Made by a program: the position numbers and the translations under genes. The notes beneath the pieces were generated by a model. The model did no database searches. It was given only the letters and a program-made list of their open reading frames with translations, and was not told the origin of the DNA. From a virus, in the IMG/VR virus record IMGVR_UViG_3300018839_000003, positions 1 to 39,289 of that record: DNA of 39,289 nt; one strand, written 5' to 3'. Each line of letters starts with the position of its first letter. Position 1 is the first letter of the stretch. Positions 1-39,289 of this stretch are shown in pieces.

Positions 1-127
1 GCTTCCTTGCGATCCACAAAATAATGCGCTGAGGCAAAACGTTTGTCCGCAATACATGTGCCATTGAAATAATTTCGCTCATTCAGGGCCGACGCGCCGG
101 GCGTGGCCGTCCAGTGCATGACAATAC
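1..127. repeat. Terminal overlap; bases 1-127 are identical to 39163-39289 (circular assembly overlap, unique length 39162 bp)
   Basis: Direct comparison of both ends. The sequence reads through the junction inside one continuous ORF. Confidence 0.95.
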
Positions 128-203
128 CCTTAACCCCTGATAATTTCAATCCCGGACGAGTATACCGGTTAACCTTAACATAGTTTTTTACGACTTTGAC
201 CAT
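1..203 (-). CDS. Endolysin (N-acetylmuramoyl-L-alanine amidase), 5' part; the ORF continues across the circular junction into 39162..38538
   Basis: Minus-strand ATG at 203-201 gives MVKVVKNYVKVNRYTRPGLKLSGVKGIV. This is in frame (84 nt) with MHWTATPG... of track ORF 38538..39281. Full length is 275 aa. Confidence 0.85.
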   Translation of the reverse strand, partial: MVKVVKNYVKVNRYTRPGLKLSGVKGIVMHWTATPGASALNERNYFNGTCIADKRFASAHYFVDRKE

Positions 204-220
204 GCTTGATCAATCCTTTC

Positions 221-637
221 TCACTTCTGGTTTTTTTCGTCTTCGTCTTTCATCTGCTCGAAACGATCGACAAGGAATTTTGGAACTGCGACGCCCAGGC
301 GTCCAAGGTTTTCAATGAAGGAAATGCCCTCCATGCCAATCAAAAACATGATCATGGAATACCGCGCGAACTGGCTGTCATTGCCGAGAATGATATCAAC
401 TTGATTAGCTACAATGATTAGGGATAGCATGGCACCCTTTTTCAAGAGGCCGCTAAACGCCGTTTTGGATGAAACGTTTTTATCCTGCCAAGCTGCAGCA
501 ACCCCCGTTAAATAATCAACAGTCATAATGATGATGAACGCAGTTAACAAATGATCAAGACCTCCAAACAAATAGGCTAAAATGCCAGTGCTGCCCCCAG
601 CGAATGAGGCGTAAAGGGTATCAGTGTTTTGTCTCAT
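221..637 (-). CDS. Holin (TcdE / phage_holin_4-like, multi-TM)
   Basis: Track ORF 221..661. AAGGAGAG lies 6 nt upstream of the internal ATG at 637 (MRQNTD...). Hydrophobic helices and a charged C-tail. Sits immediately upstream of the endolysin. Confidence 0.8.
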   Translation of the reverse strand: MRQNTDTLYASFAGGSTGILAYLFGGLDHLLTAFIIIMTVDYLTGVAAAWQDKNVSSKTAFSGLLKKGAMLSLIIVANQVDIILGNDSQFARYSMIMFLIGMEGISFIENLGRLGVAVPKFLVDRFEQMKDEDEKNQK

Positions 638-675
638 GATTTTCTCTCCTTTTTTGATCAAAATAAAAAAGCCGC

Positions 676-897
676 TTATTTCGCCGCTTTCGGTTGATTT
701 TGATTAAGTTGTTGCTGTAATTCCTTTAGCTGTAGTGTTAAATCTTCAACTTCCTTAGCCTTCAAGGTATACATAGCTTTATATCGGGTTAAATCATAGT
801 TCGCCTTTTGCAATTCGTCATTAAACGCCTTTGTTTGATAAATGAAAATTTCTCGGTCTGCCTGTAATTGCTCTTTTGTCATTTCTTCGACTTTCAT
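676..897 (-). CDS. Small coiled-coil protein of the lysis / tail-end cluster, function unknown
   Basis: Track ORF, 73 aa with heptad-like charged sequence. Packed between the XkdX-like ORF and the holin. Confidence 0.6.
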   Translation of the reverse strand: MKVEEMTKEQLQADREIFIYQTKAFNDELQKANYDLTRYKAMYTLKAKEVEDLTLQLKELQQQLNQNQPKAAK

Positions 898-910
898 TGT
901 TTTTTCCTCC

Positions 911-1096
911 TTATACTTCGTCCGGGAATGCGTCGCCGCGTGGATTCTCCATGATTTCCGCGCGCTCTTCTTCGGTTATCATTCCATTTTCGACATGGAT
1001 GTACAGCTCTTTTGTTGTCACACTTCCGTTTAGCCAGCAGTAATAAAAGTGCCCGTAGTAACGACTTTTACCTTCGAACATATCGACCGCCTCCAT
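911..1096 (-). CDS. XkdX-like small phage protein
   Basis: Track ORF 911..1099. The ATG at 1096 overlaps the stop of the upstream small ORF. Small acidic protein in the usual XkdX position, after the tail fibre genes and before the holin. Confidence 0.55.
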   Translation of the reverse strand: MEAVDMFEGKSRYYGHFYYCWLNGSVTTKELYIHVENGMITEEERAEIMENPRGDAFPDEV

Positions 1097-1245
1097 CACG
1101 ATTGTGTTCCCTCAAGCTTCATTATCAAGTCATTGGCAAGACGCTGAGTGTATACCAACTGTTCCCGCGAAATCTCGGCTTCGGTCTTTGGCCGTCCTGT
1201 CGTTTTGACTTCCTCGTTTTTTACGTTTGGTTCAAGTTGGTTCAT
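1096..1245 (-). CDS. Hypothetical 49-aa protein (MNQLEPNVKNEEVKTTGRPKTEAEISREQLVYTQRLANDLIMKLEGTQS)
   Basis: Hand-translated; below the track size cutoff. Its ATG overlaps the stop of ORF 1232..1627, and its TGA overlaps the next start. Confidence 0.5.
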   Translation of the reverse strand: MNQLEPNVKNEEVKTTGRPKTEAEISREQLVYTQRLANDLIMKLEGTQS

Positions 1246-1627
1246 TGCTATTCCCTTCTTTCTCTGGTGGTTTCACAAGTGGGACTATAAAGCCTTTCTT
1301 TTCTCCGGATGGACTGACCTCGATTCCCATGAAAGTGTGGAGAAGTTTGTCAGTCCCGGAGTATGCTGGTAGAAAAACACCATCGATATATGTTTTATCA
1401 AGATGGTATTTCATGCTTCCGGTGTCCGCGTCTTTCACGATGAACAACTCATACAAGACCGGGAATTCATCGTCTTTATCTAAACTGATAGAAACGGCGT
1501 CAAAATGATGTTTTGTGTCTCCGTCGATCAGGTCAAATTCGCTTATAATGATCCCTGTGTCGGTTTCGGTGATTTCGACTCCGTCCATATATTTGTGATA
1601 GGAATAATCTTTATAATCGATAGCCAT
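1232..1627 (-). CDS. Hypothetical protein downstream of the tail tip gene
   Basis: Track ORF, 131 aa, tightly packed in the tail operon. Confidence 0.6.
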   Translation of the reverse strand: MAIDYKDYSYHKYMDGVEITETDTGIIISEFDLIDGDTKHHFDAVSISLDKDDEFPVLYELFIVKDADTGSMKYHLDKTYIDGVFLPAYSGTDKLLHTFMGIEVSPSGEKKGFIVPLVKPPEKEGNSNEPT

Positions 1628-1644
1628 TTTAAAACCTCACTTTT

Positions 1645-4218
1645 TTACGGTACTTCGTAAAATATACAGACTAATACGCGCATGGTTCTATCACCGACAG
1701 CCGTTGTTGTTCCAGTCCCCCGCACAAATACTTTAAATCCTGTGCTGGACATGGCCTCGATACCCGCCGTACAAGCGTTAGAATAGCCCCCGTATGGTTG
1801 AGCGAATACAGCAAAAATATTCTCCGCTTTATTGGCGTTTTCATCTTGAAAAAAGTATTGCGTGGAACCGTAGGCGGCAGAACCCGAACCTAACGAAACA
1901 TCCACAAAATCTAGCAGTATCATTCCGTTACACTGTAAACCACCATATATATCTGTAAGTTCCTTTTTGATATTTATACCTAAAGCGTGATAATTACCCA
2001 ACCCAGATGAGGTATCTCCTCCGCGTAACATAGTTTTAGCAGGCAAAAGAACTTCATTTCCTAACCGTACTATTTTATCACTATGAAGGGTCATTATGTC
2101 GGTCGAGTTAATATCAGTGTACCCTGTAGTATCTACTTCGAAATGACTGCCGTTTTTGACTATAAATTCCGATTTTGGATTATCCAATGTTGTTTGTAAT
2201 CTTCCGTATTGTTGTTCCCCGTTTTTCAAGCTCATGGTCAATTCGTCATTCGTGTATATTTCGATTGCGGAAAGAGCATTGAAACCGGTTGACGAATTGG
2301 AATTTTGTGCATAAAACTGCATTTTTGAAACGTCTGCCGATGAAAATTCCTTTCCGCCATCAAGCGTTATTTTCCCGTATTCGATTGTTGTCCGGTTTAA
2401 TACTCCATCTAACTTAGGATCATTGTAATTTTGCGTTCCAGTTTCTTGAACGATTTTCCCAGCGCTTATGTTCAAACTCTCATATTGATAATATTGGACT
2501 GTTTGCCAATCGAAATTACGTTTTTGAAAGATCGTATTCGCTTCGATATACGATTCATACTGAGAAGATGGAGAAATCGGTTCTAGCCGTCCCCCTCTAA
2601 TCAATGAACCTTCAATCGTAATCCCCTTGATCGTCCCGGCTGTGATCTTGTCGGCAGACAAGTCTTTGATTAAGGCGTTTGTGATTGATTGTTTTTCAAT
2701 ATGATTTGTACCAATCCTCGTTGTTGCCGCCGAAAATTGTGCCGTGAAATTGCTGGGCGTGCCTCGTGTGTTAACTGAACGAATGCGATAATACCAAACT
2801 TGATCAACGGCAGCTTCATGAATCCAGCCGCCCGACTTACCTCTCCATAAACGGTTAGAAAAATTGACGGTATCAGGCGTGAAATCTTTCACCTGAGAGC
2901 CGTATATTTCATAAGCCGCAATATATGAGAAAGGTTCATAGTTCCAGTCGATAGCAACTTTTTCAAATAGGCCTTTGACAACAACTTTTGTAGGTGTTGG
3001 CGGCTTGGTGTCTGGAAAACTGTTATCATCTACGACTATATCCCGCCCCTGTTCGATTTCTCTTATCTTATCCTCTATCTGATCCAGACGCGTGTCAGGC
3101 TCGTATACGCTCAAGAATTGGCCCATTTCGACCGTTGCCGGGAAAGTCTGGTCTGACACATCATACTCTAAGGCAATCACACGGCCGAAAAATTCGATCG
3201 GATCAGGGATAGTTCGATCAAGAGCAAGACAGGTGTCGCCGAGTTCCACTGTCTCGTTAGTCAGGGCAACCTCAAAAGAATAATTGATCTGTATTTGGGA
3301 TGCTTCATTGACAAGATGATGATATGTTTTTTGAAGTAATTCAACCGGGTCTTTAATGTTTTCGTCTTGCCATTTTCCCTCAACGTTAATAACGCCGTCC
3401 GGTGTCTGTAAGCCGAATTTTTCTTTTGCTGGAGGGTATTCCACCCACTTTTGGCCTTTTGGTTTGTCTACCGGGTCGCCGTTCGCTTTGCTCCAGACAA
3501 CATCGGCGAAATCAATAAAGCGCGAGTCGTTTCCGTTTTCATCCTCGACGCTGCCGCCCCAGCCCCACAGGGCCGAGACCGGATAAGCCATTTCGGTTTC
3601 ATGAATTTCCTCGATGTTATAGCCGACCTCGAACCGAGTGCCGTTATCCGCTCCCCGCCGCTGCACGATGTTAACGACGCGTTCAACAATTTTATTTGTT
3701 TTGGTATCGAATGTGACAGTAAACTTTAATTCTCCGCCCCATGTGTTGATAATGTCCGTAATAGCCTCATACACGCTGATATGATAGAAATTTGTTGAAT
3801 TAATGCCGTTGCTTGCTGTGACATTGGCTTTCCATCGAGTGCCAACTAAGGCGCGTTGCAGCGCATCCAATTGCGTAGTGTTGTATGGACGTATATCATC
3901 GATGATCTTCTCAAGCAATTCCAGTTCGGCCGGCTCGCATTGCGCTATTTTCCCGACTTGATTTTCGCCATTCGCCCGGTCAATCTCCCGAATTTTGAAG
4001 AGACGAAAAAAGCCGTCTTTGTCTTTAAAAACGACCTGGTTCAATCTCGCAACATGTTTGCTGTCTTTATGCGTGGCATCGCATGTAAATTGAAATGTTG
4101 GTGATTTGTTCAGTTCTTCCCTAAATATTGCGTCCCAAAAAACACAGGCATTGTCGGCGTCACTCGACAAGATTGTGAGCAAACTATCATTCTTGTCCAA
4201 AATCCATAAATCTGCCAT
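1645..4218 (-). CDS. Tail-associated (Tal-like) minor structural / receptor-binding protein with an internal FN3 domain
   Basis: 857 aa, directly after Dit. The N-terminus resembles the prophage-tail endopeptidase family. FN3-like segment: PPTPT...WYYRIRSVNTRGTPSNF. AGGCAGGTGA RBS. Confidence 0.8.
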   Translation of the reverse strand: MADLWILDKNDSLLTILSSDADNACVFWDAIFREELNKSPTFQFTCDATHKDSKHVARLNQVVFKDKDGFFRLFKIREIDRANGENQVGKIAQCEPAELELLEKIIDDIRPYNTTQLDALQRALVGTRWKANVTASNGINSTNFYHISVYEAITDIINTWGGELKFTVTFDTKTNKIVERVVNIVQRRGADNGTRFEVGYNIEEIHETEMAYPVSALWGWGGSVEDENGNDSRFIDFADVVWSKANGDPVDKPKGQKWVEYPPAKEKFGLQTPDGVINVEGKWQDENIKDPVELLQKTYHHLVNEASQIQINYSFEVALTNETVELGDTCLALDRTIPDPIEFFGRVIALEYDVSDQTFPATVEMGQFLSVYEPDTRLDQIEDKIREIEQGRDIVVDDNSFPDTKPPTPTKVVVKGLFEKVAIDWNYEPFSYIAAYEIYGSQVKDFTPDTVNFSNRLWRGKSGGWIHEAAVDQVWYYRIRSVNTRGTPSNFTAQFSAATTRIGTNHIEKQSITNALIKDLSADKITAGTIKGITIEGSLIRGGRLEPISPSSQYESYIEANTIFQKRNFDWQTVQYYQYESLNISAGKIVQETGTQNYNDPKLDGVLNRTTIEYGKITLDGGKEFSSADVSKMQFYAQNSNSSTGFNALSAIEIYTNDELTMSLKNGEQQYGRLQTTLDNPKSEFIVKNGSHFEVDTTGYTDINSTDIMTLHSDKIVRLGNEVLLPAKTMLRGGDTSSGLGNYHALGINIKKELTDIYGGLQCNGMILLDFVDVSLGSGSAAYGSTQYFFQDENANKAENIFAVFAQPYGGYSNACTAGIEAMSSTGFKVFVRGTGTTTAVGDRTMRVLVCIFYEVP

Positions 4219-4232
4219 GTGATCACCTGCCT

Positions 4233-5474
4233 TTACAAATATTTGTCCGTGAATTTCAGCGTACTTGGCTGCGTTGCGCTAATTGGTGTATCTTTTTTTG
4301 GTGGTATCTTGAAAAAATCAGATGTGATATGATATGCCGTTTTTTTGTCTTCTCCGTTCAGGGTTGCCGCTCGATTGGCAAAATCTAAAACCAACTTATC
4401 GCCTGCGATAAAATTGAAATTAAGCAGGACGAATGCTTTAACGCTCAAGTCATCATTTAAAAGCTGAACCTCGTATTTGTCAGCCGCTTGCGTGAATGTA
4501 CATTCGATAATAGGGTATGTCGGGGCCGTTCCGTTGCTTTCGATATAGGAAGTCCCGTTCGGAAGCCAAGGCGTTAATTCGTCGCTGAGAGTGACCATAA
4601 ACCCTGTGAATTGCGCTTCAATGACAGTGAAGCCTCCCGCTGTGCTTATAAAAAGAACAAGCTGGTCAATTTCTTCCGTTAGGGTTGATAAGTCAAAATG
4701 AAATGACATTTGCATCCATCCGTTAGTATCACCTGTAAGTTTCTGATCATCTGGAAAATAAACATATGATTTATCACTTTTTTTTCGCGCTCTGAATTGA
4801 AAGACCGCCCCATTTCCGGCGGAACTATCAAAAGCTGAATTTTGAATGTTAACCCAACAAGATGCATAGCCTTGTTTACCTCTCCACCAATCTGGATTAT
4901 CAAAATAATACATAAGAAAAATTCCCGGCTGCTTTATTTTGAATGCTTGTTTGAATTTGACTTCATCGGATGATATAGAAACTACTTCGCCGATATCATT
5001 GGAAGAAAACCAATGTTCTTTCCCTTCCCTGAAATCGCCGTTTTTGATCTGGTTGTTATTCGGGTCTGTCGGGTCATTGATCATATATGACTGTTCCGCC
5101 CCGTATTTGTAAGGGTCGGGGCATACAAAATTGACTGTTCCCTTTCCAAATTTGAAAACCTCAGAAAGCTGCCCCTCCCCGTCTATCATGGCGTAATAGG
5201 TTCGATCTGGTTCGTCCGGTAGAATCAACGGGGCCGGCTTATCAGTGATTAGCCATTCCGCGACCTCTTCTTTTGCCTTTTGCAAGTCAGCAACGCCTTT
5301 AATTATGATTCCAACGGGAATAACACGGGGCTTGACCTTGGTATTTCTGAAAAAAGCACCAGGGCGGCCGGGAATCTCAATTAATTCCCTTTCGACTGGT
5401 GCCCATATCGGCCGTTGTGTCTCGACTGTCGCATGAACAAATTGTTTTGTAACTCCATTAAAAGTGAGAGACAT
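4233..5474 (-). CDS. Distal tail protein (Dit), long 'evolved' form
   Basis: 413 aa, immediately after the tape measure gene. The siphovirus tail-component-like N-terminus MSLTFNGV... overlaps the TMP stop. Confidence 0.75.
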   Translation of the reverse strand: MSLTFNGVTKQFVHATVETQRPIWAPVERELIEIPGRPGAFFRNTKVKPRVIPVGIIIKGVADLQKAKEEVAEWLITDKPAPLILPDEPDRTYYAMIDGEGQLSEVFKFGKGTVNFVCPDPYKYGAEQSYMINDPTDPNNNQIKNGDFREGKEHWFSSNDIGEVVSISSDEVKFKQAFKIKQPGIFLMYYFDNPDWWRGKQGYASCWVNIQNSAFDSSAGNGAVFQFRARKKSDKSYVYFPDDQKLTGDTNGWMQMSFHFDLSTLTEEIDQLVLFISTAGGFTVIEAQFTGFMVTLSDELTPWLPNGTSYIESNGTAPTYPIIECTFTQAADKYEVQLLNDDLSVKAFVLLNFNFIAGDKLVLDFANRAATLNGEDKKTAYHITSDFFKIPPKKDTPISATQPSTLKFTDKYL

Positions 5475-33898: not shown

Positions 33899-33921
33899 GG
33901 CCGCCGTATGGCGGTTTTTTT
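33899..33921 (+). terminator. Plus-strand intrinsic terminator hairpin with no obvious plus-strand gene upstream
   Basis: CCGCC-gtat-GGCGG followed by seven T. On the minus strand it lacks a U-tract. Confidence 0.45.
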
Positions 33922-34045: not shown

Positions 34046-34293
34046 TCCGCCGCCTCCCGCTCGTATAGTCGATCAATTTTCCATGTTGCTTTTCCCGGTG
34101 AGTATTTGGGTTTGCGGATGATTAAAACCGGTTCTCCATCAATCATAAGAGCCTGATTTCCATTTTCATCTTCTGCAAAACTCGTCCGCTTCGGTATATC
34201 ATCTGCCGTTAAATTGAAATGTCTAAAGGCGCTTTCATATTCCGAATCTATGAGTTTTTTTATATTTTCGATCCAATCATCAATGAAATTCAT
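34042..34293 (-). CDS. Hypothetical protein
   Basis: Track ORF of 83 aa. Confidence 0.6.
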   Translation of the reverse strand: MNFIDDWIENIKKLIDSEYESAFRHFNLTADDIPKRTSFAEDENGNQALMIDGEPVLIIRKPKYSPGKATWKIDRLYEREAAE

Positions 34294-34520
34294 AAATCGT
34301 TATCCCCCTCGTCATCTTCACCGAAAGCCATTTCGAACGATTCTTCGATGAATTTAATATGTCTCTTAATCTCGACAATCGTCATATTTTCAAAGTCCGG
34401 ACCGTGTCCCGGCACATGGAAAGAGCGCGCTTTTTCGATCAGCCGTTCCCGTTCGATATAATTTTCATAACCTTCATCAAATTCCTCTTTTGTCATGTTG
34501 CATTGATAACAATCGCACAT
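34290..34520 (-). CDS. Hypothetical acidic protein (MCDCYQCNMTKEEF...)
   Basis: Track ORF 34290..34562. GGAAGGAG lies 9 nt upstream of the ATG at 34520. Confidence 0.55.
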   Translation of the reverse strand: MCDCYQCNMTKEEFDEGYENYIERERLIEKARSFHVPGHGPDFENMTIVEIKRHIKFIEESFEMAFGEDDEGDNDL

Positions 34521-34554
34521 TGTGTCATTCTCCTTCCCGGCTCCGGCCGCTGTT

Positions 34555-34713
34555 TTACGCATTAACTCCCTTTACTTTGTGACCCTGTATGTCAAGTATC
34601 TCTAATATCACTTGAATAATTTCAGGGTTGTATTCATCGTATGGCTTGTTTATTTCCCTGTTGCAATAATACTCATACATTCTTCTAATTTTTTCGTTTT
34701 GTTCATCAGTCAT
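34555..34713 (-). CDS. Hypothetical 52-aa protein (MTDEQNEKIRRMYEYYCNREINKPYDEY...)
   Basis: Hand-translated. Same GGAAGGAG leader block as the next gene. Confidence 0.5.
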   Translation of the reverse strand: MTDEQNEKIRRMYEYYCNREINKPYDEYNPEIIQVILEILDIQGHKVKGVNA

Positions 34714-34759
34714 GCTCATTCTCCTTCCCGGATCCGGCCGCTGTTTTGGTTAATGCATT

Positions 34760-34927
34760 TTAAAGCCACATTTGGATTGTATGAAATATATTTTGAATCT
34801 CAGGAATTGTATATTTAAATGCGTAATCTATAAGACAGATAGCTGAAAGGGTTAATCCTAGTACGTTTATTCTGTTTAGCTTGAATTCATACACATCATC
34901 AAACAGAAACTTTTTAATTTTTCTCAC
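34760..34927 (-). CDS. Hypothetical small membrane protein
   Basis: Track ORF 34760..34957. An AGGGAGG RBS favours the GTG at 34927. One hydrophobic helix. Confidence 0.45.
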   Translation of the reverse strand: MRKIKKFLFDDVYEFKLNRINVLGLTLSAICLIDYAFKYTIPEIQNIFHTIQMWL

Positions 34928-34979
34928 TTGAATAGCCTCCCTGTATTCCCGATCCACTGTTCTGGCAGCTTAATGATAA

Positions 34980-34995
34980 GAGGGCCGCAGCCCTC
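34980..34995. repeat. Intercistronic hairpin GAGGGC-cgca-GCCCTC (copy 1 of 3)
   Basis: Lies directly after the stop of 34998..35204. The same 20-mer AGAGGGCCGCAGCCCTCGA occurs at 36541-36559. Confidence 0.6.
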
Positions 34996-34997
34996 GA

Positions 34998-35204
34998 TTA
35001 TTTTTTACCTACTAATGCCGACGGGTTAAGGTATCTTGCTTTTTCCAACAGCCTTTTTACTTCATCATAACTTTCTCCGACCGTAATTTCCGCTTGATTT
35101 TTATAAACGACCTTGCAATTTTCGCCGTCTCTCCAAAAGGACGCTATTTCGTCAACATTCTCCAAATATTTTTCACCTTCAAACGTCAATTCGATAAATT
35201 TCAT
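34998..35204 (-). CDS. Hypothetical 68-aa protein
   Basis: Track ORF 34998..35267. A GAAAGGGGAA RBS precedes the ATG at 35204 (MKFIELTFEG...). Confidence 0.55.
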   Translation of the reverse strand: MKFIELTFEGEKYLENVDEIASFWRDGENCKVVYKNQAEITVGESYDEVKRLLEKARYLNPSALVGKK

Positions 35205-35222
35205 TTTACATTCCCCTTTCAA

Positions 35223-35238
35223 GAGAGCCGCAGCCCCC
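35223..35238. repeat. Intercistronic hairpin variant GAGAGC-cgca-GCCCCC (copy 2 of 3)
   Basis: Follows the stop of 35239..35676. Pairs with G-U wobbles on the minus strand. Confidence 0.45.
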
Positions 35239-35676
35239 TTACTTGATATAAAACGTCTTGGATTCAAACGTCCCTACATAGTTGTTTTTCTTGGCATCCG
35301 TGTAGCAATCAAGTTGAATGACATATGATCCTTTCCCGGTGCGCTTCCGAATCTCGCTGACGCTGAAAGACTTTAACGGCGTTGAGTGCTTGAAGTATCC
35401 CCGCTGTACAAGGTTTGTATCAGTTAAGCCGCCGCCAGAACGTTTTTTATAGACGCCCGCTGTGTAGTAAAGTGTGCTTGATCCTTTCTTTTCGGCTCGC
35501 CAGTCAACTGTTTTCGCCCCCGAATAGTAATTCGTGTCGTCGGTGAAAATCCTCGCTGTATGGCCGAATGCTTCCTTTTGCCAAGGCGACCAAACAGCCG
35601 CCGCAGATTGCGAGAATAAAAGTGTTCCAGAAATCAAGAGTGACAGTGTGACGATCGTTTTGATTAGCTTTTTCAT
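35239..35676 (-). CDS. Secreted protein of unknown function (Sec signal peptide)
   Basis: 145 aa. MKKLIKTIVTLSLLISGTLLFSQSAAA followed by a mature domain rich in Y, K and T. Confidence 0.7.
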   Translation of the reverse strand: MKKLIKTIVTLSLLISGTLLFSQSAAAVWSPWQKEAFGHTARIFTDDTNYYSGAKTVDWRAEKKGSSTLYYTAGVYKKRSGGGLTDTNLVQRGYFKHSTPLKSFSVSEIRKRTGKGSYVIQLDCYTDAKKNNYVGTFESKTFYIK

Positions 35677-35858
35677 GATTCATTCACCTTTCCTAATGAT
35701 TTTTTCAATCTTTCTATTTCTCTTTTTTGGTTTAAAACGGTTCTGATTAGCCAAGACACATCGTCTGCCCGTAAAAATTGTTTCGGGTCTCCTACTTCAA
35801 GTATCTGTTTCATGCTTATTTCTTCGATTCTTTTTGAAAGTGATTTTGTTCTCCCCAT
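35673..35858 (-). CDS. Hypothetical protein
   Basis: Track ORF 35673..35867. The RBS favours the ATG at 35858. Confidence 0.5.
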   Translation of the reverse strand: MGRTKSLSKRIEEISMKQILEVGDPKQFLRADDVSWLIRTVLNQKREIERLKKSLGKVNES

Positions 35859-35892
35859 TTCCCGCACCCACCTTCATATTTGAACTTGATTT

Positions 35893-36255
35893 TTATTCTG
35901 CATCATGCTGAGCCACATGCAGGAATATTGCTGATACCATCGGCAAAGAGACTAATAGCATCATGATTACCTGTTTGAAGTTTTCGAGATACATATATCC
36001 ATACAAGACGACGGCGAAAGCGCTGATCAGAACCAAGACCAATCCATAAAACCAGTTTCTAACCGCCATCGCAAACACCAATCCCAAAGTGAACACAATT
36101 ATCACGGCGGACTCTCCGAGTGTCGGCCGGTATATCCATTGATAAACGAACATGAAAGCACCGCCGAGAATAATTAAACACCATTTTATCACTTTTAAAC
36201 TAACCACCCCTACCACCCCTTTTTTATTAATCGCCCTTTTTGGTAACTTTCTCAA
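35893..36255 (-). CDS. Integral membrane protein (3-4 TM), start uncertain
   Basis: Track ORF of 120 aa with several hydrophobic helices. A GTG further in has a GGGGTGG RBS. Confidence 0.6.
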   Translation of the reverse strand: MRKLPKRAINKKGVVGVVSLKVIKWCLIILGGAFMFVYQWIYRPTLGESAVIIVFTLGLVFAMAVRNWFYGLVLVLISAFAVVLYGYMYLENFKQVIMMLLVSLPMVSAIFLHVAQHDAE

Positions 36256-36499
36256 GGTCTCTTACAAGTTGTTTTAAGAATGGTAGGTGATCCTTTGTGA
36301 GAGAAATACCTCTTCCTTCCTTTGGTGCGTCGCTTTTCTTAGCAGTATAAAGGAAAACATTCTCCTCGCCTTTGGTAAAATCCACAACATAATTCAATTT
36401 GTCGTCGCCGCTAACTATCGTGTCAGATTCACCTACAACTACATCAGTATATGGGCATTCAGTAATCCAAAGATGATCGTTCCAATCGAATTTTTCCAT
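36227..36499 (-). CDS. Hypothetical protein
   Basis: Track ORF of 90 aa. GGGAAGGGGAA RBS. Confidence 0.6.
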   Translation of the reverse strand: MEKFDWNDHLWITECPYTDVVVGESDTIVSGDDKLNYVVDFTKGEENVFLYTAKKSDAPKEGRGISLTKDHLPFLKQLVRDLEKVTKKGD

Positions 36500-36541
36500 T
36501 TTTTATTCCCCTTCCCGGCTCGTGCCGATGTTTTTTTACAA

Positions 36542-36557
36542 GAGGGCCGCAGCCCTC
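36542..36557. repeat. Intercistronic hairpin GAGGGC-cgca-GCCCTC (copy 3 of 3)
   Basis: Lies between 36588..36869 and 36227..36499. Confidence 0.6.
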
Positions 36558-36587
36558 GACCTTTTAAAAATATGGAGAAAACTCTTT

Positions 36588-36869
36588 TTAAAATGCCTTG
36601 TACATCGATTTTTCTTTTTCGTCTTCAATATATTTTTTCCACTTGGAAATAAATTTATCGACTTTGTTTATGTGTTTCAGAGGAACGTGTGTATGACCCT
36701 CAGTAGCTAAATCACGTTCAGATAAAACTTTAAACAGTATACTAGAAATGGTCTTGTCTTCGAGGTTATCAAGTTCCGGAGCGAACTCATCAAAATGGAG
36801 GCCCCACGCTTCGTTTAAGCATTTCTCGAATTTTTCATTTTGACTCATATATTTGATCGCTTTTGCCAT
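36588..36869 (-). CDS. Hypothetical protein, first gene of the accessory operon
   Basis: Track ORF of 93 aa. The promoter lies 35 nt upstream. Confidence 0.6.
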   Translation of the reverse strand: MAKAIKYMSQNEKFEKCLNEAWGLHFDEFAPELDNLEDKTISSILFKVLSERDLATEGHTHVPLKHINKVDKFISKWKKYIEDEKEKSMYKAF

Positions 36870-36930: not shown

Positions 36931-37058
36931 CCCTAAAATTAAAAAAAAGTTCTCGAAAACAAAACTTTTGTTGTTAAGTCCTTTTCCTCTTATTCCAAAT
37001 TAAAGAAATATGATAGAATATTAGAAATGTAAAGAAATGTATGAAAGGGGTTAGGATA

Positions 37059-38201
37059 TTGAAAAGTGATTTGATACCGTCATCATCGGTCGGAAATAAA
37101 ATCAACTTGTGGTATGAATACATAAGGAAATTCGCGGTTCCTGATGCGGAATATATGAGAAGTGAGATAGCAAAGGAAATTAACAACATGGAAGAAAACC
37201 AGGACTTGCTTTTGTATTATTCACTGATGGAATTTCGGCACCGTCTTATGCTCGACTACCTTGAGCCGTTGGTTGATTCAAAAGAACGATTTCCTATATC
37301 TGAATTGTTGGAAAATTTGGAGAATAAACAAGCTGACTTAAAAGGCATCTTGGACTTTTATTTTAACTTATTTCGCGGGATGTATGAATTTGATAATCGA
37401 GAATACATCGAGGCCATAACATATTATAAGAGAGCAGAAAAAAAGCTTCCTCTCGTCAAAGATGAGATTGAAAAAGCTGAATTTTATTTCAAAATCGCAG
37501 AAGTTTACTATCACATGAAGCAGACATATTTTTCGATGCACTGCGCTAAACAGTCATATGAAATATACAAAGAGTACCCGGCTTACACTGTGAGAATCAT
37601 TCAATGTCATTTTGTCCTGGCTGGTAACTTCATGGATGTTAAAAACTACGAACAAGCCGCAAGGCACTTATACAAAGCATTAGAAATGTCAGAGGATGAA
37701 CAACGATCGCAGCTTATCGGCCGATCTAATTATAACTTGGGCGTATGCTGCTATGAGCAGGATGATTTCGACCGGGCCGGCAACCACATCAATCGGGCTA
37801 TTGAAATTTTTGTGAATGATCATGTTTCGAATCCGCTGGCTCAAGCATATTTCCTTTTGGCACAAATGCGATTTAAACAAAAGATGATCAAGGCGGCAAA
37901 GGATGCAGCCGAATCGGGTATTGATTACGCCAACAAAACCGAAAATCTCGTCTATCTAAAAAAATTCGATTTTCTGCGATCGCTTTATTTGGCAGGGCCG
38001 GATGTACAAGGGATAGAAAATTGTTTGCATTATTTAAGATCAAAAAAAATGTATGCAGACGTTGAGGACTTGGCACTTGAGACAGCAAAATATTATAATG
38101 ATAAAGAGAATTACAAAATGGCTGCAGAATACTTTTTAAAAGTTGAGGAAGCGAGAAAACAAACGCAAAGAGGGGAATGCCTTTATGAAATTGAAATATA
38201 A
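37059..38201 (+). CDS. rap: Rap-family TPR response-regulator aspartate phosphatase / ComA-type regulator inhibitor
   Basis: Track ORF 37041..38201. The AAAGGGG RBS favours the TTG at 37059. Hallmarks: IPSSSVGNKINLWYEYIRKF, LLLYYSLMEFRHRLMLDYLEP, C-terminal QRGECLYEIEI. Confidence 0.9.
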   Translation: MKSDLIPSSSVGNKINLWYEYIRKFAVPDAEYMRSEIAKEINNMEENQDLLLYYSLMEFRHRLMLDYLEPLVDSKERFPISELLENLENKQADLKGILDFYFNLFRGMYEFDNREYIEAITYYKRAEKKLPLVKDEIEKAEFYFKIAEVYYHMKQTYFSMHCAKQSYEIYKEYPAYTVRIIQCHFVLAGNFMDVKNYEQAARHLYKALEMSEDEQRSQLIGRSNYNLGVCCYEQDDFDRAGNHINRAIEIFVNDHVSNPLAQAYFLLAQMRFKQKMIKAAKDAAESGIDYANKTENLVYLKKFDFLRSLYLAGPDVQGIENCLHYLRSKKMYADVEDLALETAKYYNDKENYKMAAEYFLKVEEARKQTQRGECLYEIEI

Positions 38202-38304
38202 AATATTCGCCGTTTGCTTGGCAGTTGCCGCAATCATCACGGCATCCGGAATAACACAAGCCGCATCCGGAAATGTTCAAATCGCCGAGAGACTCATGAC
38301 TTGA
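38185..38304 (+). CDS. phr: Phr pre-peptide, 39 aa (MKLKYKIFAVCLAVAAIITASGITQAASGNVQIAERLMT)
   Basis: Hand-translated. The ATG overlaps the rap 3' end by 17 nt. It has a signal peptide and a C-terminal pentapeptide ERLMT. Confidence 0.85.
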   Translation: MKLKYKIFAVCLAVAAIITASGITQAASGNVQIAERLMT

Positions 38305-38389
38305 TTTTTAAAAAGTTTGTGAAATGTTTTAGCGCTTTACAGTGGTCAACTTCCCTTATTCAACATTATGTAAACTAAAAAGACATCCT

Positions 38390-38418
38390 AAAGCCTGTGA
38401 AATCAGGCTTTCTTTTTT
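38390..38418 (+). terminator. Intrinsic terminator of rap-phr
   Basis: AAAGCCTG-tgaaat-CAGGCTTT followed by CTTTTTT. Confidence 0.75.
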
Positions 38419-38424
38419 GCATAG

Positions 38425-38455
38425 AAAAAAGCCCCCTGTTTTGTTCACAGAGGGC
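38425..38455 (-). terminator. Intrinsic terminator of the lysis cassette / late operon
   Basis: Minus strand GCCCTCTG-tgaacaaaa-CAGGGGGC followed by TTTTTT. Confidence 0.7.
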
Positions 38456-38537
38456 GGATTTGTTCGCGTTTTGAATCCTTTTTAGTACAGATAGCGAACA
38501 AAATTGTTCAATTTCAATTACTATGAATTTCACAAAC

Positions 38538-39289
38538 TCAGTTAAGGAGTTGATCCAACTTCGCCCGCGTCTTCGGCCCGTAAATGCCATCGGCGGTCAA
38601 ACCGTGCATCATCTGGAATCGTTTGACTGCGTTTGCCGTTTTCGCCCCGTAATACCCGTCAATGCCGTTATTTTTCGCGCCCTTCTCCGGATAGAAATAA
38701 AGGGCAGCTAGCGCCTCTTGAATCTGCCGGACGGACGTTCCTTTCATCATCGGGCTTTTATATTTGTAAATCCCAGTCGGCAGCGTGTACTTTTTGGCTG
38801 CAGGCTTTTTTGGCGCTTCCTTTTTCGGCTCCGATTTTGTTTTATTACCCAAGATGCTATCGACTTTTTTACGGAATGCTGCCAGTTGGCTTGAATCCTT
38901 CACCCACGGCGCCGGGCAGCTTTTATTTGTAACGTCATAATGCCGCACAATCTTGTCTGTAGAAAGGTCATACCGCTTACATAAATCAGCGACCAATTCA
39001 GCAGCATTTTGAACGGTTTCACTGTGGATCGTGGCATTTTTCTCAACACACATTTCAACGCCGATTGCTGTCGTATTGGCATTTGGCTTTAAAAAACTGA
39101 CATAGCAGCGATTTTGGTCATGTGCATGATAGGCCACTTCATTCTCAGGGATAATCAATTGGGCTTCCTTGCGATCCACAAAATAATGCGCTGAGGCAAA
39201 ACGTTTGTCCGCAATACATGTGCCATTGAAATAATTTCGCTCATTCAGGGCCGACGCGCCGGGCGTGGCCGTCCAGTGCATGACAATAC
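38538..39289 (-). CDS. Endolysin, 3' part: amidase_2 (PGRP-type) catalytic domain plus a C-terminal peptidoglycan-binding repeat
   Basis: Track ORF 38538..39281. C-terminal motif ...GIDGYYGAKTANAVKRFQMMHGLTADGIYGPKTRAKL. The true start is at window position 203, across the junction. Confidence 0.85.
   Translation of the reverse strand, partial: IVMHWTATPGASALNERNYFNGTCIADKRFASAHYFVDRKEAQLIIPENEVAYHAHDQNRCYVSFLKPNANTTAIGVEMCVEKNATIHSETVQNAAELVADLCKRYDLSTDKIVRHYDVTNKSCPAPWVKDSSQLAAFRKKVDSILGNKTKSEPKKEAPKKPAAKKYTLPTGIYKYKSPMMKGTSVRQIQEALAALYFYPEKGAKNNGIDGYYGAKTANAVKRFQMMHGLTADGIYGPKTRAKLDQLLN
39163..39289. repeat. Second copy of the 127-bp terminal overlap
   Basis: Identical to 1-127. Confidence 0.95.

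What the first reader, a model, noticed from the sequence alone, without database searches (positions are those of the whole stretch)
1..39289. Closed circular temperate phage with a plasmid maintenance module and no integrase: probable phage-plasmid
The ends overlap by exactly 127 bp and the junction restores a single endolysin ORF, so the molecule assembles as a 39,162-bp circle.

It carries a full siphovirus set (terS/terL through the lysis genes) and a cI/cro switch. I see no integrase, recombinase, transposase or attP-like region in any frame.

The slot next to cI, where an integrase normally sits, holds:
- a winged-helix Rep with internal iterons (32177-33052);
- a candidate antisense RNA;
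- a ParA ATPase;
- an RHH protein;
- hexamer arrays.

There are therefore two separate replication modules. The DnaD-like/DnaC-like pair presumably serves lytic growth, and Rep/Par serves lysogenic maintenance.
Basis: partly seen in the sequence, partly recalled or inferred. Interest (0 to 1): 0.7.

Follow-up and report, generated by a model that had tools for sequence, protein, structure and literature searches.

The report
Bacillus phage that persists as plasmid
This is a complete 39-kb temperate tailed phage of a Bacillus subtilis-group host that has no integrase and instead carries a plasmid replication, copy-control and partition kit, so it most likely lives in its host as a low-copy plasmid; phage-plasmids are a known kind, and this is a new, little-studied member.

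Summary
The ends repeat exactly 127 bp, and closing the 39,162-bp circle restores a 275-aa endolysin. The same unit was assembled as 39,162+141 bp and 39,162+30 bp elsewhere.

The window encodes:
- a full siphovirus set;
- a cI/cro switch;
- between lysis and cI, a 291-aa initiator with iterons inside its own gene, a conserved countertranscript, a small ParA, a probable RHH partner and two hexamer arrays.

No ORF of 150 aa or more matches an integrase, resolvase or transposase. The 386-aa opposite-strand ORF is a RapC-like Rap with an overlapping Phr.

A second initiator/loader pair (DnaD-like and DnaC/I-like) has its own in-gene repeats, so two replication modules are supported.

Collinear relatives are deposited as circular plasmids in complete Bacillus genomes: p9912D (35.4 kb) and pSH-B74.

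I add two points. There is a dif-like host Xer site just downstream of the endolysin gene, conserved in relatives, which qualifies "no attP-like region". There is also a second repressor-controlled early promoter.

Verdict: a phage-plasmid, a new member of a known kind. The plasmid state of this metagenomic copy is inferred, not shown.

The parts
1..127 (.). Terminal repeat identical to 39163-39289. It is an assembler overlap marking a circular graph; true unit length 39,162 bp.
   Evidence: Exact 127-bp overlap. The same unit was assembled as 39,303 and 39,192 bp elsewhere.
1..203 (-). 5' part of the endolysin gene (start codon at 203); continues at 39162.
   Evidence: ORF reconstructed across the junction, 275 aa; Amidase_2 1.4e-23 and PG_binding_1 1.2e-19.
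38538..39162 (-). 3' part of the endolysin gene.
221..661 (-). Holin.
   Evidence: Phage_holin_4_1, 3.4e-35.
1232..10247 (-). Tail module: Gp22-like, tail endopeptidase/Tal, Dit, tape measure, Gp15, chaperone, fn3 protein, tail tube candidate, tail terminator.
   Evidence: Pfam and PHROG hits.
10259..16329 (-). Head module: minor capsid proteins, major head protein (11557-12444), scaffold candidate, minor capsid protein 2 (13703-14818), SPP1-type portal (14818-16329).
16983..18936 (-). Terminase large subunit (16983-18284, PBSX family) and small subunit (18265-18936).
   Evidence: TIGR01547, 1.3e-57; Terminase_2, 1e-40.
20224..20721 (-). RinA/sigma-like late-gene activator.
   Evidence: phrog_36 and phrog_248; sub-threshold TIGR01636 (25.6 bits against a 31.9-bit cutoff).
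25521..27111 (-). Second (probably lytic) replication module: DnaD-like replisome organiser (26254-27111) and DnaC/DnaI-like loader (25521-26363).
   Evidence: phrog_2514, 1e-68; IstB_IS21 match and sub-cutoff PRK08116, DnaC and DnaI matches.
26666..26749 (.). Repeats inside the DnaD-like gene: 8 bp x3.8 (100% matches) and 11 bp x4.4. Candidate lytic origin.
27134..28938 (-). RecT annealase and YqaJ exonuclease (homologous recombination, not site-specific).
   Evidence: RecT 4.2e-61, YqaJ 1.8e-37.
29566..29802 (-). Cro-like HTH protein. Its PR promoter is TTGATA-17-TATAAT at 29864-29836, with a TTCGC-N5-GCGAA operator in the spacer.
30026..30406 (+). cI-like repressor (HTH_19/HTH_3, no S24 peptidase domain), divergent from cro.
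30986..31306 (-). 106-aa ParA partner. It has an N/D-rich middle and a probable ribbon-helix-helix C-terminus.
   Evidence: Sub-threshold hits only to RHH families: RHH_3 0.0023, Antitox_RHH 0.016. Conserved in three relatives.
31143..31222 (.). Centromere-like array 1: 13 in-phase hexamers (TTAACA/ATAACA/ATAATG types) inside the partner's ORF.
31296..32081 (-). Small ParA ATPase (258-261 aa, no N-terminal HTH). The likely start is the TTG at 32072.
   Evidence: AAA_31 1.7e-29, CbiA 3e-12. Sub-cutoff NCBIfam matches to ParA-type partition ATPase models. Called as 258 aa elsewhere.
32085..32148 (.). Centromere/operator-like array 2: 10 in-phase hexamers just upstream of parA. It shares a 21-mer with array 1.
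32177..33052 (-). Rep, the plasmid-type initiator (291 aa, GTG start): winged-helix N-domain, disordered linker, helical C-domain.
   Evidence: PHROG replication initiators. Profile hit to pSK41 RepA C-domain 4pqk, 2.2e-6. Model and fold search.
32543..32692 (.). Candidate plasmid origin inside rep: 14-bp iterons TGAGGACTTCAAAA (32619-32688) and an A+T-rich stretch with 2 x 15-bp repeats (32580-32610).
   Evidence: 88-93% DNA identity to p9912D here against 33-82% in the rest of the gene. The encoded residues have pLDDT below 50.
33095..33196 (+). Candidate countertranscript to the rep leader: promoter TTGACT-17-TATAAT (33095-33123), then a roughly 60-nt RNA ending in a hairpin plus U6.
   Evidence: Best promoter match in the region. 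Fold -18.8 kcal/mol, z -3.95. TATAAT invariant, and hairpin kept by compensatory changes, in six elements.
33377..33610 (-). DUF7667 protein, always immediately upstream of rep in the family. Role unknown.
   Evidence: PF24704, 1.1e-29; synteny.
33626..36869 (-). Operon of 11 small ORFs with no family match. It is driven by a PL-like promoter (36930-36902) that has the cI-type operator in its spacer.
37041..38201 (+). Rap protein (RapH_N plus TPR), closest to RapC (57%) and RapF (52%). A 380-aa version starts at 37059.
38185..38304 (+). Phr propeptide (39 aa). It overlaps the rap 3' end and has a signal-peptide-like N-terminus and C-terminal ERLMT.
   Evidence: its own promoter at 38070-38099.
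38349..38376 (+). dif-like site ACTTCCCTTAT-TCAACA-TTATGTAAACT. Candidate target of the host RipX/CodV (XerCD-type) recombinases.
   Evidence: 21/28 identical to B. subtilis dif, with the right arm 11/11. 2 of 5000 shuffles do as well. Conserved just downstream of the endolysin gene in p9912D, and in degenerate form in L019. dif sequence confirmed in the literature.

Best explanation
The window is the complete, circularly assembled genome (39,162 bp) of a temperate siphovirus of a Bacillus subtilis-group host. It keeps its prophage as a low-copy circular plasmid instead of integrating.

Proposed working in lysogeny (gene content and motifs are shown; functions are inferred):
- The cI-like repressor sits on TTCGC-N5-GCGAA operators in the spacers of two near-identical early promoters. 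These are PR (toward cro, recombination and DnaD/DnaC) and a PL-like promoter (toward the accessory operon).
- Rep is made from its own weak promoter. A roughly 60-nt countertranscript to its leader throttles it.
- Rep binds the 14-bp iterons in the middle of its own gene and opens the adjacent A+T-rich repeats. It recruits host replication proteins through its RepA-like C-domain, giving theta replication.
- The small ParA and its RHH-type partner segregate copies, using the two hexamer arrays that flank parA. The upstream array probably also autoregulates the operon.
- Dimers are probably resolved by the host RipX/CodV recombinases at the dif-like site next to the endolysin gene.
- Rap-Phr tunes host ComA- or Spo0A-type signalling according to the density of carriers.

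On induction, the DnaD-like organiser is proposed to bind its own in-gene repeats and, with the DnaC/I-like loader, drive lytic replication. RinA-like activation then turns on late genes, and a PBSX-type terminase packages DNA, probably by a headful mechanism.
For: - Circular unit: exact 127-bp overlap and a restored endolysin. The same unit length came from three assemblers.
- Complete phage modules.
- No integrase, resolvase or transposase domain in any ORF of 150 aa or more, or in most of the predicted genes of 100-150 aa. The only long opposite-strand ORF is Rap.
- Rep: PHROG replication-initiator hits. A profile matches the pSK41 RepA C-domain at 2.2e-6 and RepA_N N-domains at 0.02-0.04. 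Distant homologues carry PF18008, PF06970, PF07261 or PF13730. The fold search returns winged-helix DnaB/DnaD/RepA N-domains.
- In-gene origin: the iterons lie in a predicted disordered linker. That linker is nevertheless the most conserved DNA of the gene, at 88-93% against 33-82%. This matches the pSK41 layout described in PMC5703833.
- Countertranscript.
- Partition.
- Second origin and initiator.
- Relatives:
  - p9912D is a 35,409-bp circular plasmid of a complete B. velezensis genome. It has the same order (cI/cro, ParA, Rep, lysis, tail, head, terminase) and no integrase annotated. 38 of 70 window genes are shared collinearly.
  - The same element is plasmid pSH-B74 in B. amyloliquefaciens.
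  - Other relatives sit on contigs of 35-39 kb.
  - No close Rep homologue lies on a chromosome-sized contig.
- The structural genes are 47-51% identical to portal proteins of B. cereus-group plasmid prophages (IEBH, 250, PfNC7401, pBClin29-size plasmids).
- dif-like site.
Against: - The copy in hand comes from metagenome assemblies. There is no coverage, host chromosome or junction information, so its plasmid state is inferred from gene content and from relatives.
- A headful-packaging phage gives circularly permuted virion DNA, which also assembles as a circle. Circularity alone therefore does not show a plasmid.
- Rep has no Pfam or NCBIfam hit of its own. Its model is only moderately confident (pLDDT 66.5), and no fold match reaches E<0.001.
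- The RHH assignment rests on sub-threshold hits and a failed single-sequence model.
- The conserved dif-like site could in principle serve integration rather than dimer resolution.
- p9912D lacks the DnaD/DnaC pair. The division of labour between the two initiators is therefore not universal in the family, and it is untested.
Confidence: 0.8

Rival explanations
1. The phage integrates without an integrase of its own. It would use the host RipX/CodV recombinases at the chromosomal dif site, in the manner of IMEX elements such as CTXphi, through the dif-like site at 38349-38376. Rep and Par would serve only transient or alternative episomal phases.
For: - The dif-like site has a perfect 11-nt right arm and 7/11 in the left arm, which 2 of 5000 shuffles match.
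- It lies just downstream of the endolysin gene, roughly where attP sits in many Firmicutes siphoviruses. It is conserved there in p9912D and, in degenerate form, in L019.
Against: - All close relatives are on stand-alone 35-39-kb contigs or are deposited as plasmids. None is on a chromosome-sized contig.
- In another Rep-bearing viral contig, the same kind of site lies between terL and portal. Integration there would split the late operon, whereas a dimer-resolution site can sit anywhere.
- The central 6 bp differ from dif at 3 of 6 positions.
- A full replication, copy-control and partition kit would be redundant for an integrating phage.
Confidence: 0.06
2. The contig is only the circularly permuted virion (or replicating) DNA of a phage that does not form stable plasmid lysogens. 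Rep would be a phage replication protein, and ParA/RHH would be accessory genes without a maintenance role.
For: - The source is metagenomic.
- The PBSX-type terminase suggests headful packaging, which yields circular assemblies.
- Rep's N-domain has relatives annotated as phage DnaD-like or replication proteins.
Against: - A cI/cro switch with operators is present.
- The collinear relative occurs as a plasmid in two sequenced Bacillus strains.
- A separate DnaD/DnaC module with its own repeats already covers lytic replication.
- Countertranscript copy control, centromere arrays and a Xer-type site are maintenance features, not lytic ones.
Confidence: 0.08
3. It is a plasmid carrying a defective, no longer infectious prophage (a cryptic phage-derived plasmid).
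For: - No virions have been observed.
- A 212-aa ORF is inserted between terL and portal, compared with p9912D.
Against: - Every essential module is present, with intact long ORFs. Predicted genes cover about 91% of the circle, and no truncated structural gene was seen.
- The family shows phage-like mosaic module exchange between members.
Confidence: 0.05

Closest known systems
p9912D (NZ_CP017776.1, B. velezensis 9912D) and pSH-B74 (NZ_CP030098.1, B. amyloliquefaciens), deposited as plasmids
   Same: - Same gene order: cI/cro, small ORF, RHH-like, ParA, Rep, DUF7667, accessory genes, lysis, tail, head, terminase.
- 38 of 70 genes are shared. Amino-acid identities: Rep 72%, ParA 74%, terL 83%, DUF7667 81%.
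- Same in-gene iteron core (about 90% DNA identity), same antisense promoter and terminator, and the same dif-like site just downstream of the endolysin gene.
   Different: - No DNA-level similarity detectable by megablast outside short stretches.
- p9912D has Gam/ERF instead of YqaJ/RecT, and it lacks both the DnaD/DnaC pair and Rap-Phr.
- I found no paper that mentions p9912D or its accession.
B. cereus-group plasmid prophages (vB_BtS/BceS-IEBH, phage 250, PfNC7401, RBClin15, pBT1850042-type plasmids)
   Same: - Temperate siphoviruses kept as plasmids.
- Portal 47-51% identical.
- In pBT1850042, a Rep N-domain homologue sits near HTH repressor genes, an AimR and a ParA.
- RBClin15 is described as combining RepA-like, parABS, arbitrium, DnaD-type, DnaC-type and RecU genes (PMC11526630).
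   Different: - Different host clade and larger genomes (41-56 kb).
- Mostly arbitrium rather than Rap-Phr.
- Rep identity is only 40-46%, over the N-domain.
pSK41-type RepA_N replicons and the chimeric pPR9 initiator (staphylococci)
   Same: - Three-part initiator with the origin (Rep boxes) in the central, linker-coding part of rep.
- A C-domain related to RepA CTD (4pqk, 2.2e-6).
- A countertranscript against the rep leader.
- Like pPR9, the N-domain is not the canonical RepA_N. A staphylococcal homologue carries PF13730.
   Different: - No PF06970 or PF13730 hit for the window's own protein.
- The partition system is type Ib and lies downstream, not the divergent type II par of pSK41 (the pSK41 arrangement is from my own knowledge, not checked here).
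- The element is a phage.
Phage P1 (paradigm phage-plasmid)
   Same: A separate plasmid replicon (an iteron-binding RepA) and lytic replicon, a ParA-type partition system with a centromere, a dimer-resolution function, and an immunity repressor.
   Different: - P1 carries its own recombinase (Cre/lox), whereas this element appears to borrow the host Xer system.
- P1 has a type Ia ParAB. It is a 94-kb myovirus of enterobacteria.
- This comparison rests on established knowledge, not on a test here.
Type Ib partition systems with RHH adaptors (TP228 ParF/ParG, pSM19035 delta/omega)
   Same: A small deviant-Walker-A ParA, a roughly 100-aa partner with a flexible N-terminus and an RHH-like C-terminus, and arrays of short repeats that include one at the operon promoter.
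   Different: - No significant sequence match to ParG or omega.
- One array lies inside the partner's own coding sequence.
RapC-PhrC / RapF-PhrF of B. subtilis, and Rap-Phr cassettes of phages, plasmids and phage-plasmids
   Same: - RapH_N plus TPR architecture; 57% identity to RapC.
- An overlapping phr whose C-terminal ERLMT resembles CSF (ERGMT).
- Rap genes on phage-plasmids are documented in PMC9765709.
   Different: The target and peptide specificity are unknown. The closest non-self homologue is only 64% identical.

Membership tests
Phage-plasmid (temperate phage maintained as a plasmid) | Complete virion, packaging and lysis gene set | tested here: met
   Pfam, PHROG and NCBIfam hits for terS, terL, portal, head, tail, tape measure, holin and endolysin.
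Phage-plasmid (temperate phage maintained as a plasmid) | Plasmid-type replication initiator and partition genes | tested here: met
   Rep; ParA; iterons and centromere-like arrays.
Phage-plasmid (temperate phage maintained as a plasmid) | No integrase or other site-specific recombinase | tested here: met
   All ORFs of 150 aa or more in six frames, and most predicted genes of 100-150 aa, were scanned against Pfam without such a hit. PGAP annotates none in p9912D. Limit: four predicted genes of 104-112 aa and most ORFs under 100 aa were not scanned, and no profile-profile search was run.
Phage-plasmid (temperate phage maintained as a plasmid) | Extrachromosomal circular prophage in the lysogen | not testable with these tools
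   The window is metagenomic. Indirect support: relatives p9912D and pSH-B74 are separate circular replicons in complete genomes, and close Rep homologues are found only on contigs of 39 kb or less.
Phage-plasmid (temperate phage maintained as a plasmid) | Produces infectious virions | not testable with these tools
   Needs induction and plaque or lysogenisation assays.
RepA_N replicon (pSK41/pAD1 type) | N-terminal RepA_N domain (PF06970) | tested here: not met
   No Pfam hit at E<=0.01. The profile matches RepA_N N-domain structures only at E 0.02-0.3. The fold search lists 4pql and 5kbj at E 0.2-0.3.
RepA_N replicon (pSK41/pAD1 type) | Origin repeats in the central, linker-coding part of rep | tested here: met
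   14-bp iterons and an A+T-rich repeat at gene positions about 360-510. The encoded residues 111-165 have pLDDT below 50. DNA conservation peaks there. The defining layout is taken from PMC5703833. Binding was not tested.
RepA_N replicon (pSK41/pAD1 type) | C-terminal domain related to RepA CTD (PF18008) | tested here: met
   Profile A2 against 4pqk, E 2.2e-6. Many homologues carry PF18008.
RepA_N replicon (pSK41/pAD1 type) | Countertranscript against the rep leader | tested here: inconclusive
   Strong sequence and comparative prediction, but no transcript data. No Rfam family matches.
pPR9-type chimeric initiator | Phage-like HTH N-domain (PF13730) joined to a RepA-type C-domain | tested here: inconclusive
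   The window protein has no PF13730 hit. S. aureus homologue P0015 (44% identity over 63% of the query) carries PF13730. Domain swapping is visible in P0038.
Type Ib partition system | Small ParA with deviant Walker A and no N-terminal HTH | tested here: met
   258-261 aa; AAA_31 and CbiA cover residues 7-234; KGG motif at residues 12-14 of the 261-aa ORF.
Type Ib partition system | Ribbon-helix-helix centromere-binding partner | tested here: inconclusive
   Only RHH families appear, all below cutoff (RHH_3 0.0023; Antitox_RHH 0.016-0.07). The single-sequence model was unusable, pLDDT 42. The PDB profile search gave spurious hits.
Type Ib partition system | Centromere of short repeats at or near the operon | tested here: met
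   Two hexamer arrays. Motif density reaches 23 per 80 bp against a genome mean of 0.33 (the motif set was defined post hoc).
Rap-Phr cassette | RapH_N plus TPR receptor with an overlapping downstream secreted propeptide | tested here: met
   RapH_N 9.2e-25 plus TPRs. A 39-aa ORF overlaps rap by 17 nt, with a hydrophobic N-terminus and C-terminal ERLMT. No signal-peptide predictor was run.
Xer (dif/cer-type) recombination site | 11-6-11 core with a conserved XerD-type arm | tested here: met
   Right arm 11/11 and left arm 7/11 against B. subtilis dif. Conserved in p9912D and L019.
Xer (dif/cer-type) recombination site | Recombined by host RipX/CodV | not testable with these tools
   Needs genetics or in vitro recombination.

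The most novel reading that the evidence does not exclude
The conserved dif-like site makes this family the first tailed phages to depend on the host Xer (RipX/CodV) machinery. At the least, this would resolve plasmid-prophage dimers in place of a Cre- or ResD-type recombinase of their own. At the most, it would allow a facultative switch between a plasmid prophage and an IMEX-like prophage integrated at the chromosomal dif site.
Probability: 0.07. Interest if true: 0.75.

Novelty: new member of a known kind. Interest (0 to 1): 0.4.

Why it matters
Phage-plasmids are common but have been studied mainly in enterobacteria (P1, N15, SSU5).

This element and its relatives (p9912D, pSH-B74) define an apparently undescribed phage-plasmid family in the genetically tractable B. 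subtilis group. Its maintenance kit is compact and readable:
- an initiator with the origin inside its own gene;
- a countertranscript;
- a type Ib partition system, with one centromere array embedded in the adaptor gene;
- a likely host-Xer dimer-resolution site;
- swappable communication cassettes (Rap-Phr here, AimR in a relative).

It would make a convenient model for three questions: how a phage runs two replicons under one immunity switch, how quorum signals from a plasmid prophage act on the host, and whether phage-plasmids outsource dimer resolution.

It also shows that such elements are filed as plain 'plasmids' in databases.

Tried and rejected
- **Integrase check.** The 386-aa opposite-strand ORF looked like a possible integrase, but it is Rap.
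- **Rep family searches.** Pfam and NCBIfam gave nothing for Rep. The AlphaFold model is moderate, and no Foldseek match reached E<0.001. These results are used only as consistency checks.
- **RHH partner.** The full-length Pfam search gave only a spurious GrpE hit. The PDB profile search hit designed helical repeats and LRR proteins through the low-complexity N/D stretch, and I rejected these. The single-sequence structure model was unusable.
- **RNA searches.** Rfam gave nothing at gathering thresholds, and only chance-level hits at E<=1. There are no tRNAs.
- **GC skew.** It is uniformly negative because nearly all genes are on one strand, so it says nothing about the origin.
- **DNA similarity.** Megablast of both halves against phages and plasmids found only hits of 218-403 bp, or none.
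- **Species-representative genomes.** The scan found only distant Rep N-domain relatives.
- **Literature.** Searches for p9912D, CP017776, and phage-plasmid with Xer returned nothing. A B. velezensis 'phage-plasmid' in PMC12911394 is a 13.9-kb linear element and is unrelated.
- **Other ideas considered.** I did not examine the roughly 170-nt promoter-to-terminator unit at 30955-30735 for a type I toxin-antitoxin or sRNA beyond the Rfam scan.
- **Not used.** The representative-protein search and the metagenome scan.

Full report

Yes.
- The first 127 bases equal the last 127 exactly, and no other overlap length matches.
- Closing the circle at 39,162 bp joins two ORF fragments into one 275-aa minus-strand gene (203->1, then 39162->38538). 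It has Amidase_2 and PG_binding_1 domains, so it is an endolysin.
- The exact Rep protein of this window is also encoded on an ENA MEGAHIT contig of 39,303 bp and a Logan contig of 39,192 bp. These are 39,162 plus 141 and plus 30. They fit the k-mer overlaps those assemblers would leave on circular paths (the k values are inferred from the contig name 'k141' and from my own knowledge of the pipelines, not checked). The two contigs are linearised at different points.
- The circle is therefore a property of the reads, not of one assembler. The assemblies may share reads, so this is replication across assemblers rather than across samples.
- A circular assembly does not distinguish a plasmid from circularly permuted virion DNA.

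**2. Gene content**

Nearly all genes lie on the minus strand, and predicted genes cover about 91% of the circle. Family searches identify:
- holin, endolysin, tail endopeptidase/Tal, Dit, tape measure, Gp15, tail terminator, minor capsid proteins, major head protein, minor capsid protein 2 and an SPP1-type portal;
- a PBSX-family large terminase and a Terminase_2 small subunit;
- a RinA/sigma-like regulator, SSB, RecU, RecT and a YqaJ exonuclease;
- a DnaD-like replisome organiser and a DnaC/DnaI-like loader;
- divergent HTH repressors of cI and cro type.

I scanned every ORF of 150 aa or more in all six frames, and most of the predicted genes of 100-150 aa. None matches an integrase, resolvase, DDE transposase or protelomerase.

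The one long ORF on the opposite strand (37041-38201) could have been an integrase. It is a Rap protein with RapH_N and TPR domains.

**3. The plasmid module: replication and copy control**

Between the lysis genes and cI lie, in transcription order, a DUF7667 gene, rep, parA, a 106-aa gene and a 61-aa gene.

Rep (32177-33052, GTG start, 291 aa):
- It has no Pfam or NCBIfam hit of its own.
- It matches PHROG replication-initiator families.
- Its homologues are overwhelmingly on plasmids. More distant ones carry PF18008 (RepA C-terminal), PF06970 (RepA_N), PF07261 or PF13730.
- A profile of 32 homologues hits the pSK41 RepA C-domain structure 4pqk at E 2.2e-6, and RepA_N N-domain structures at E 0.02-0.04.
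- The AlphaFold model (pLDDT 66.5) has a winged-helix N-domain, a disordered stretch at about residues 111-165 and a helical C-domain.
- Its best fold matches are the primosomal DnaB and DnaD N-domains, winged-helix regulators and pSK41 RepA. None is significant.

In-gene origin:
- The disordered linker is encoded by exactly the DNA that holds the repeats. These are three to four 14-bp iterons (TGAGGACTTCAAAA, 32619-32688) and an A+T-rich stretch with two 15-bp repeats (32580-32610).
- Against p9912D, this stretch is 88-93% identical at the DNA level. The N-domain coding region is 62-80% identical, and the last third of the gene 33-58%.
- A linker that is disordered as protein but is the best-conserved DNA of the gene is what a cis-acting origin predicts.
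- It is also the layout described for pSK41. There, four Rep boxes lie centrally in rep, and the ori-encoded central domain is a dispensable linker (PMC5703833).
- The same review describes pPR9, whose initiator has a phage-like PF13730 N-domain joined to the pSK41 C-domain and replicates autonomously. The window's Rep appears to be of this modular kind: a staphylococcal homologue carries PF13730. In a B. subtilis protein (P0038), a canonical RepA_N N-domain is fused to this family's C-terminal half.

Copy control:
- The best sigma-A-type promoter match in the whole 4.7-kb region lies on the plus strand, antisense to the rep leader (TTGACT-17-TATAAT, 33095-33123).
- About 10 nt downstream begins a structure ending in a G+C hairpin and a U6 run (-18.8 kcal/mol, z = -3.95).
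- I aligned six family members whose leaders are otherwise diverged. The TATAAT box is invariant. The hairpin is kept through compensatory changes: CCCGG/CCGGG, CCCGTG/CACGGG and CAGGG/CCCTG. The T-run is kept too.
- On the rep strand the hairpin is not followed by a T-run, so it is an antisense terminator.
- A roughly 60-nt countertranscript to the 5' end of the rep leader is therefore well supported by sequence. It is analogous to pSK41 RNAI, but no transcript data exist. No Rfam family covers it.

**4. The plasmid module: partition**

- ParA (258-261 aa) matches AAA_31 and CbiA, and it has sub-cutoff NCBIfam matches to ParA-type partition ATPase models. It has no N-terminal HTH, so it is a type Ib ATPase.
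- The overlapping 106-aa gene is conserved in three relatives.
- Its C-terminal 50 residues give only RHH families in Pfam, all below cutoff (RHH_3 0.0023, Antitox_RHH 0.016). Structure prediction from a single sequence failed. RHH is probable, not shown.
- Two arrays of in-phase hexamers (TTAACA, ATAACA and ATAATG types, in both orientations) flank parA. Ten hexamers lie immediately upstream (32085-32148), and thirteen lie inside the partner's ORF (31143-31222).
- The two arrays share a 21-mer and are unique in the genome.
- The internal array is translated as the N/D-rich middle of the protein. The same holds in the relatives.

**5. Two replication modules**

- The DnaD-like gene (phrog_2514, 1e-68) and the DnaC/DnaI-like loader sit in the cro-side early operon.
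- The DnaD-like gene contains its own repeats: 8 bp x3.8 at 100% matches, and 11 bp x4.4 (26666-26749).
- The genome thus has two initiator genes, each with in-gene repeats.
- The assignment of roles is inference. p9912D lacks the DnaD/DnaC pair, so in that relative Rep, or recombination-dependent replication, must also serve lytic growth.

**6. Relatives**

- There is no DNA-level relative in the phage or plasmid collections beyond hits of 218-403 bp to plasmids of B. glycinifermentans and B. paralicheniformis and to a B. licheniformis phage.
- At protein level the closest deposited element is p9912D, a 35,409-bp circular plasmid of the complete genome of B. velezensis 9912D. It has the same gene order and no integrase annotated.
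- 38 of 70 window genes have collinear homologues there, at 31-83% identity.
- The same element, with identical protein accessions, is plasmid pSH-B74 of B. amyloliquefaciens. It is assembled as 1.74 unit lengths.
- Other family members sit on contigs of 38,723, 35,157, 35,315 and 39,132 bp.
- All keep DUF7667-Rep next to cI. They swap neighbouring modules: Gam/ERF for YqaJ/RecT, two unknown ORFs for ParA/RHH, and AimR for Rap.
- No close Rep homologue lies on a chromosome-sized contig.
- Portal proteins are 47-51% identical to those of B. cereus-group plasmid prophages (IEBH, 250, PfNC7401) and to many 48-62-kb B. cereus-group plasmids.
- A B. thuringiensis 41.9-kb plasmid carries a Rep N-domain homologue near repressor, AimR and ParA genes.
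- The combination of RepA-like, parABS, DnaD-type, DnaC-type and RecU genes in one plasmid-borne Bacillus phage has been described (PMC11526630).
- The kind is therefore known. The B. subtilis-group family appears undescribed: no paper mentions p9912D or its accession.

**7.

(a) Rap-Phr cassette.
- Rap is 57% identical to RapC and 52% to RapF.
- A 39-aa ORF overlaps its 3' end. It has a hydrophobic N-terminus and ends in ERLMT, close to the PhrC pentapeptide ERGMT. The ERGMT comparison rests on my own knowledge.
- It has its own promoter inside rap.
- Rap genes on phage-plasmids are documented (PMC9765709).

(b) A dif-like site at 38349-38376.
- It reads ACTTCCCTTAT-TCAACA-TTATGTAAACT. B. subtilis dif is ACTTCCTAGAA-TATATA-TTATGTAAACT; I recalled this sequence and confirmed it in the literature.
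- The right arm is perfect, and the left arm matches 7 of 11. Two of 5000 shuffles do as well.
- p9912D has ACTTCCCACAA-ACTACA-TTATGTAAACT at the same place and orientation, just downstream of the endolysin gene, although the flanks do not align. L019 has a degenerate copy there.
- A scan of viral contigs found the pattern in five contigs. One is p9912D-like. Another is an unrelated Rep-bearing phage in which the site lies between terL and portal.
- A site that may sit inside the late operon fits dimer resolution better than integration.
- I therefore read it as a cer/psi-like site that lets the plasmid prophage borrow the host RipX/CodV recombinases. I keep integration at dif as a low-probability rival.

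(c) A second early promoter.
- The operator palindrome TTCGC-N5-GCGAA occurs four times: three around cro, and one at 36908-36922.
- That fourth copy lies in the 17-nt spacer of a TTGATT-17-TATAAT promoter, which drives the accessory operon starting at 36869. This mirrors PR, where the operator also fills the spacer.
- An exact 13-mer, GAGAACTTTTTTT, accompanies three of the four operators (all but the one at 29781), 20-38 nt away. There are three copies against 0.25 expected.
- The element thus has a lambda-like PL/PR layout under one repressor.

**8. Verdict**

This is a temperate siphovirus with a plasmid replicon, copy control, partition and probably host-assisted dimer resolution, and with no integrase.
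- Shown here: gene content, motifs and synteny, and the plasmid status of relatives.
- Inferred here: the plasmid state of this copy and all mechanisms.
- Confidence that it is a phage-plasmid: about 0.8.
- Novelty: it is a new member of a known kind.
- Interest: moderate (0.4). This rests mainly on its value as a tractable Bacillus model, and on the conserved Xer-type site.

Noticed in passing
window 38349-38376 (+); L001 5486-5513; L019 1773-1800; L027-L031: A dif-like (Xer-type) site lies just downstream of the endolysin gene. It has a perfect 11-nt right arm and is conserved in p9912D, and in degenerate form in L019. The same pattern occurs in five IMG/VR contigs. One of them is an unrelated Rep-bearing phage, where the site sits between terL and portal.
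   Followed up: partly
window 37041-38304 (+): A complete Rap-Phr cassette on the strand opposite to almost all other genes. Rap is RapC-like (57%), and the Phr ends in ERLMT. phr has its own promoter at 38070-38099, inside rap.
   Followed up: partly
window 36902-36954 and 29549-29906: A second repressor-controlled early promoter (TTGATT-17-TATAAT), with the same TTCGC-N5-GCGAA operator in its spacer as PR. Three exact copies of GAGAACTTTTTTT accompany three of the four operators. Together they give a lambda-like PL/PR layout, with the PL-like operon pointing toward DUF7667-rep-parA.
   Followed up: partly
window 26666-26749: Perfect 8-bp x3.8 and 11-bp x4.4 tandem repeats inside the DnaD-like gene; candidate lytic origin.
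   Followed up: partly
window 31143-31222: One centromere-like hexamer array lies inside the coding sequence of the ParA partner. It is translated as an N/D/I-rich low-complexity linker, and the same is seen in p9912D, L002 and L022.
   Followed up: partly
window 16342-16980 (-): A 212-aa ORF lies between terL and portal, where p9912D has none. PHROG hits are to fn3/tail-protein segments, and its best p9912D match is part of the tail spike. It may be a decoration or moron gene in an unusual place.
   Followed up: no
L019 6254-7483 (JGI contig, 35,157 bp): A family member carries an AimR (arbitrium) receptor between the Rep module and cI, and two unknown ORFs (156 and 170 aa) in place of ParA and its partner. 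Communication and segregation modules are exchangeable in this family.
   Followed up: no
L032 (NZ_CP030098.1, pSH-B74, 61,634 bp): This deposited 'plasmid' is the p9912D element assembled as 1.74 unit lengths (period 35,399 bp, identical protein accessions). It is either an assembly overshoot or reads from concatemers or multimers.
   Followed up: partly
P0038 (B. subtilis protein): A chimeric initiator: a canonical RepA_N N-domain joined to a C-terminal half nearly identical to that of the p9912D-type Rep. This indicates domain shuffling between plasmid and phage-plasmid initiators.
   Followed up: no
window 33233-33250 and 33799-33816: An 18-nt inverted repeat (94% complementary) sits in the promoter-like regions upstream of rep and upstream of the 63-aa/DUF7667 pair. 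It may be a shared operator. DUF7667 is always adjacent to rep in the family, and its role is unknown.
   Followed up: no
window 30735-30955 (-): A promoter-like site (TTGTCA-17-TATACT) is followed about 170 nt later by a strong terminator, with no convincing ORF between them. It could be a small RNA or a type I toxin-antitoxin locus next to the partition genes. No Rfam match.
   Followed up: no
window 29000-39162 against 9000-19000: The lysogeny, plasmid and accessory part has lower G+C (38-40%) than the structural part (43-48%).
   Followed up: no
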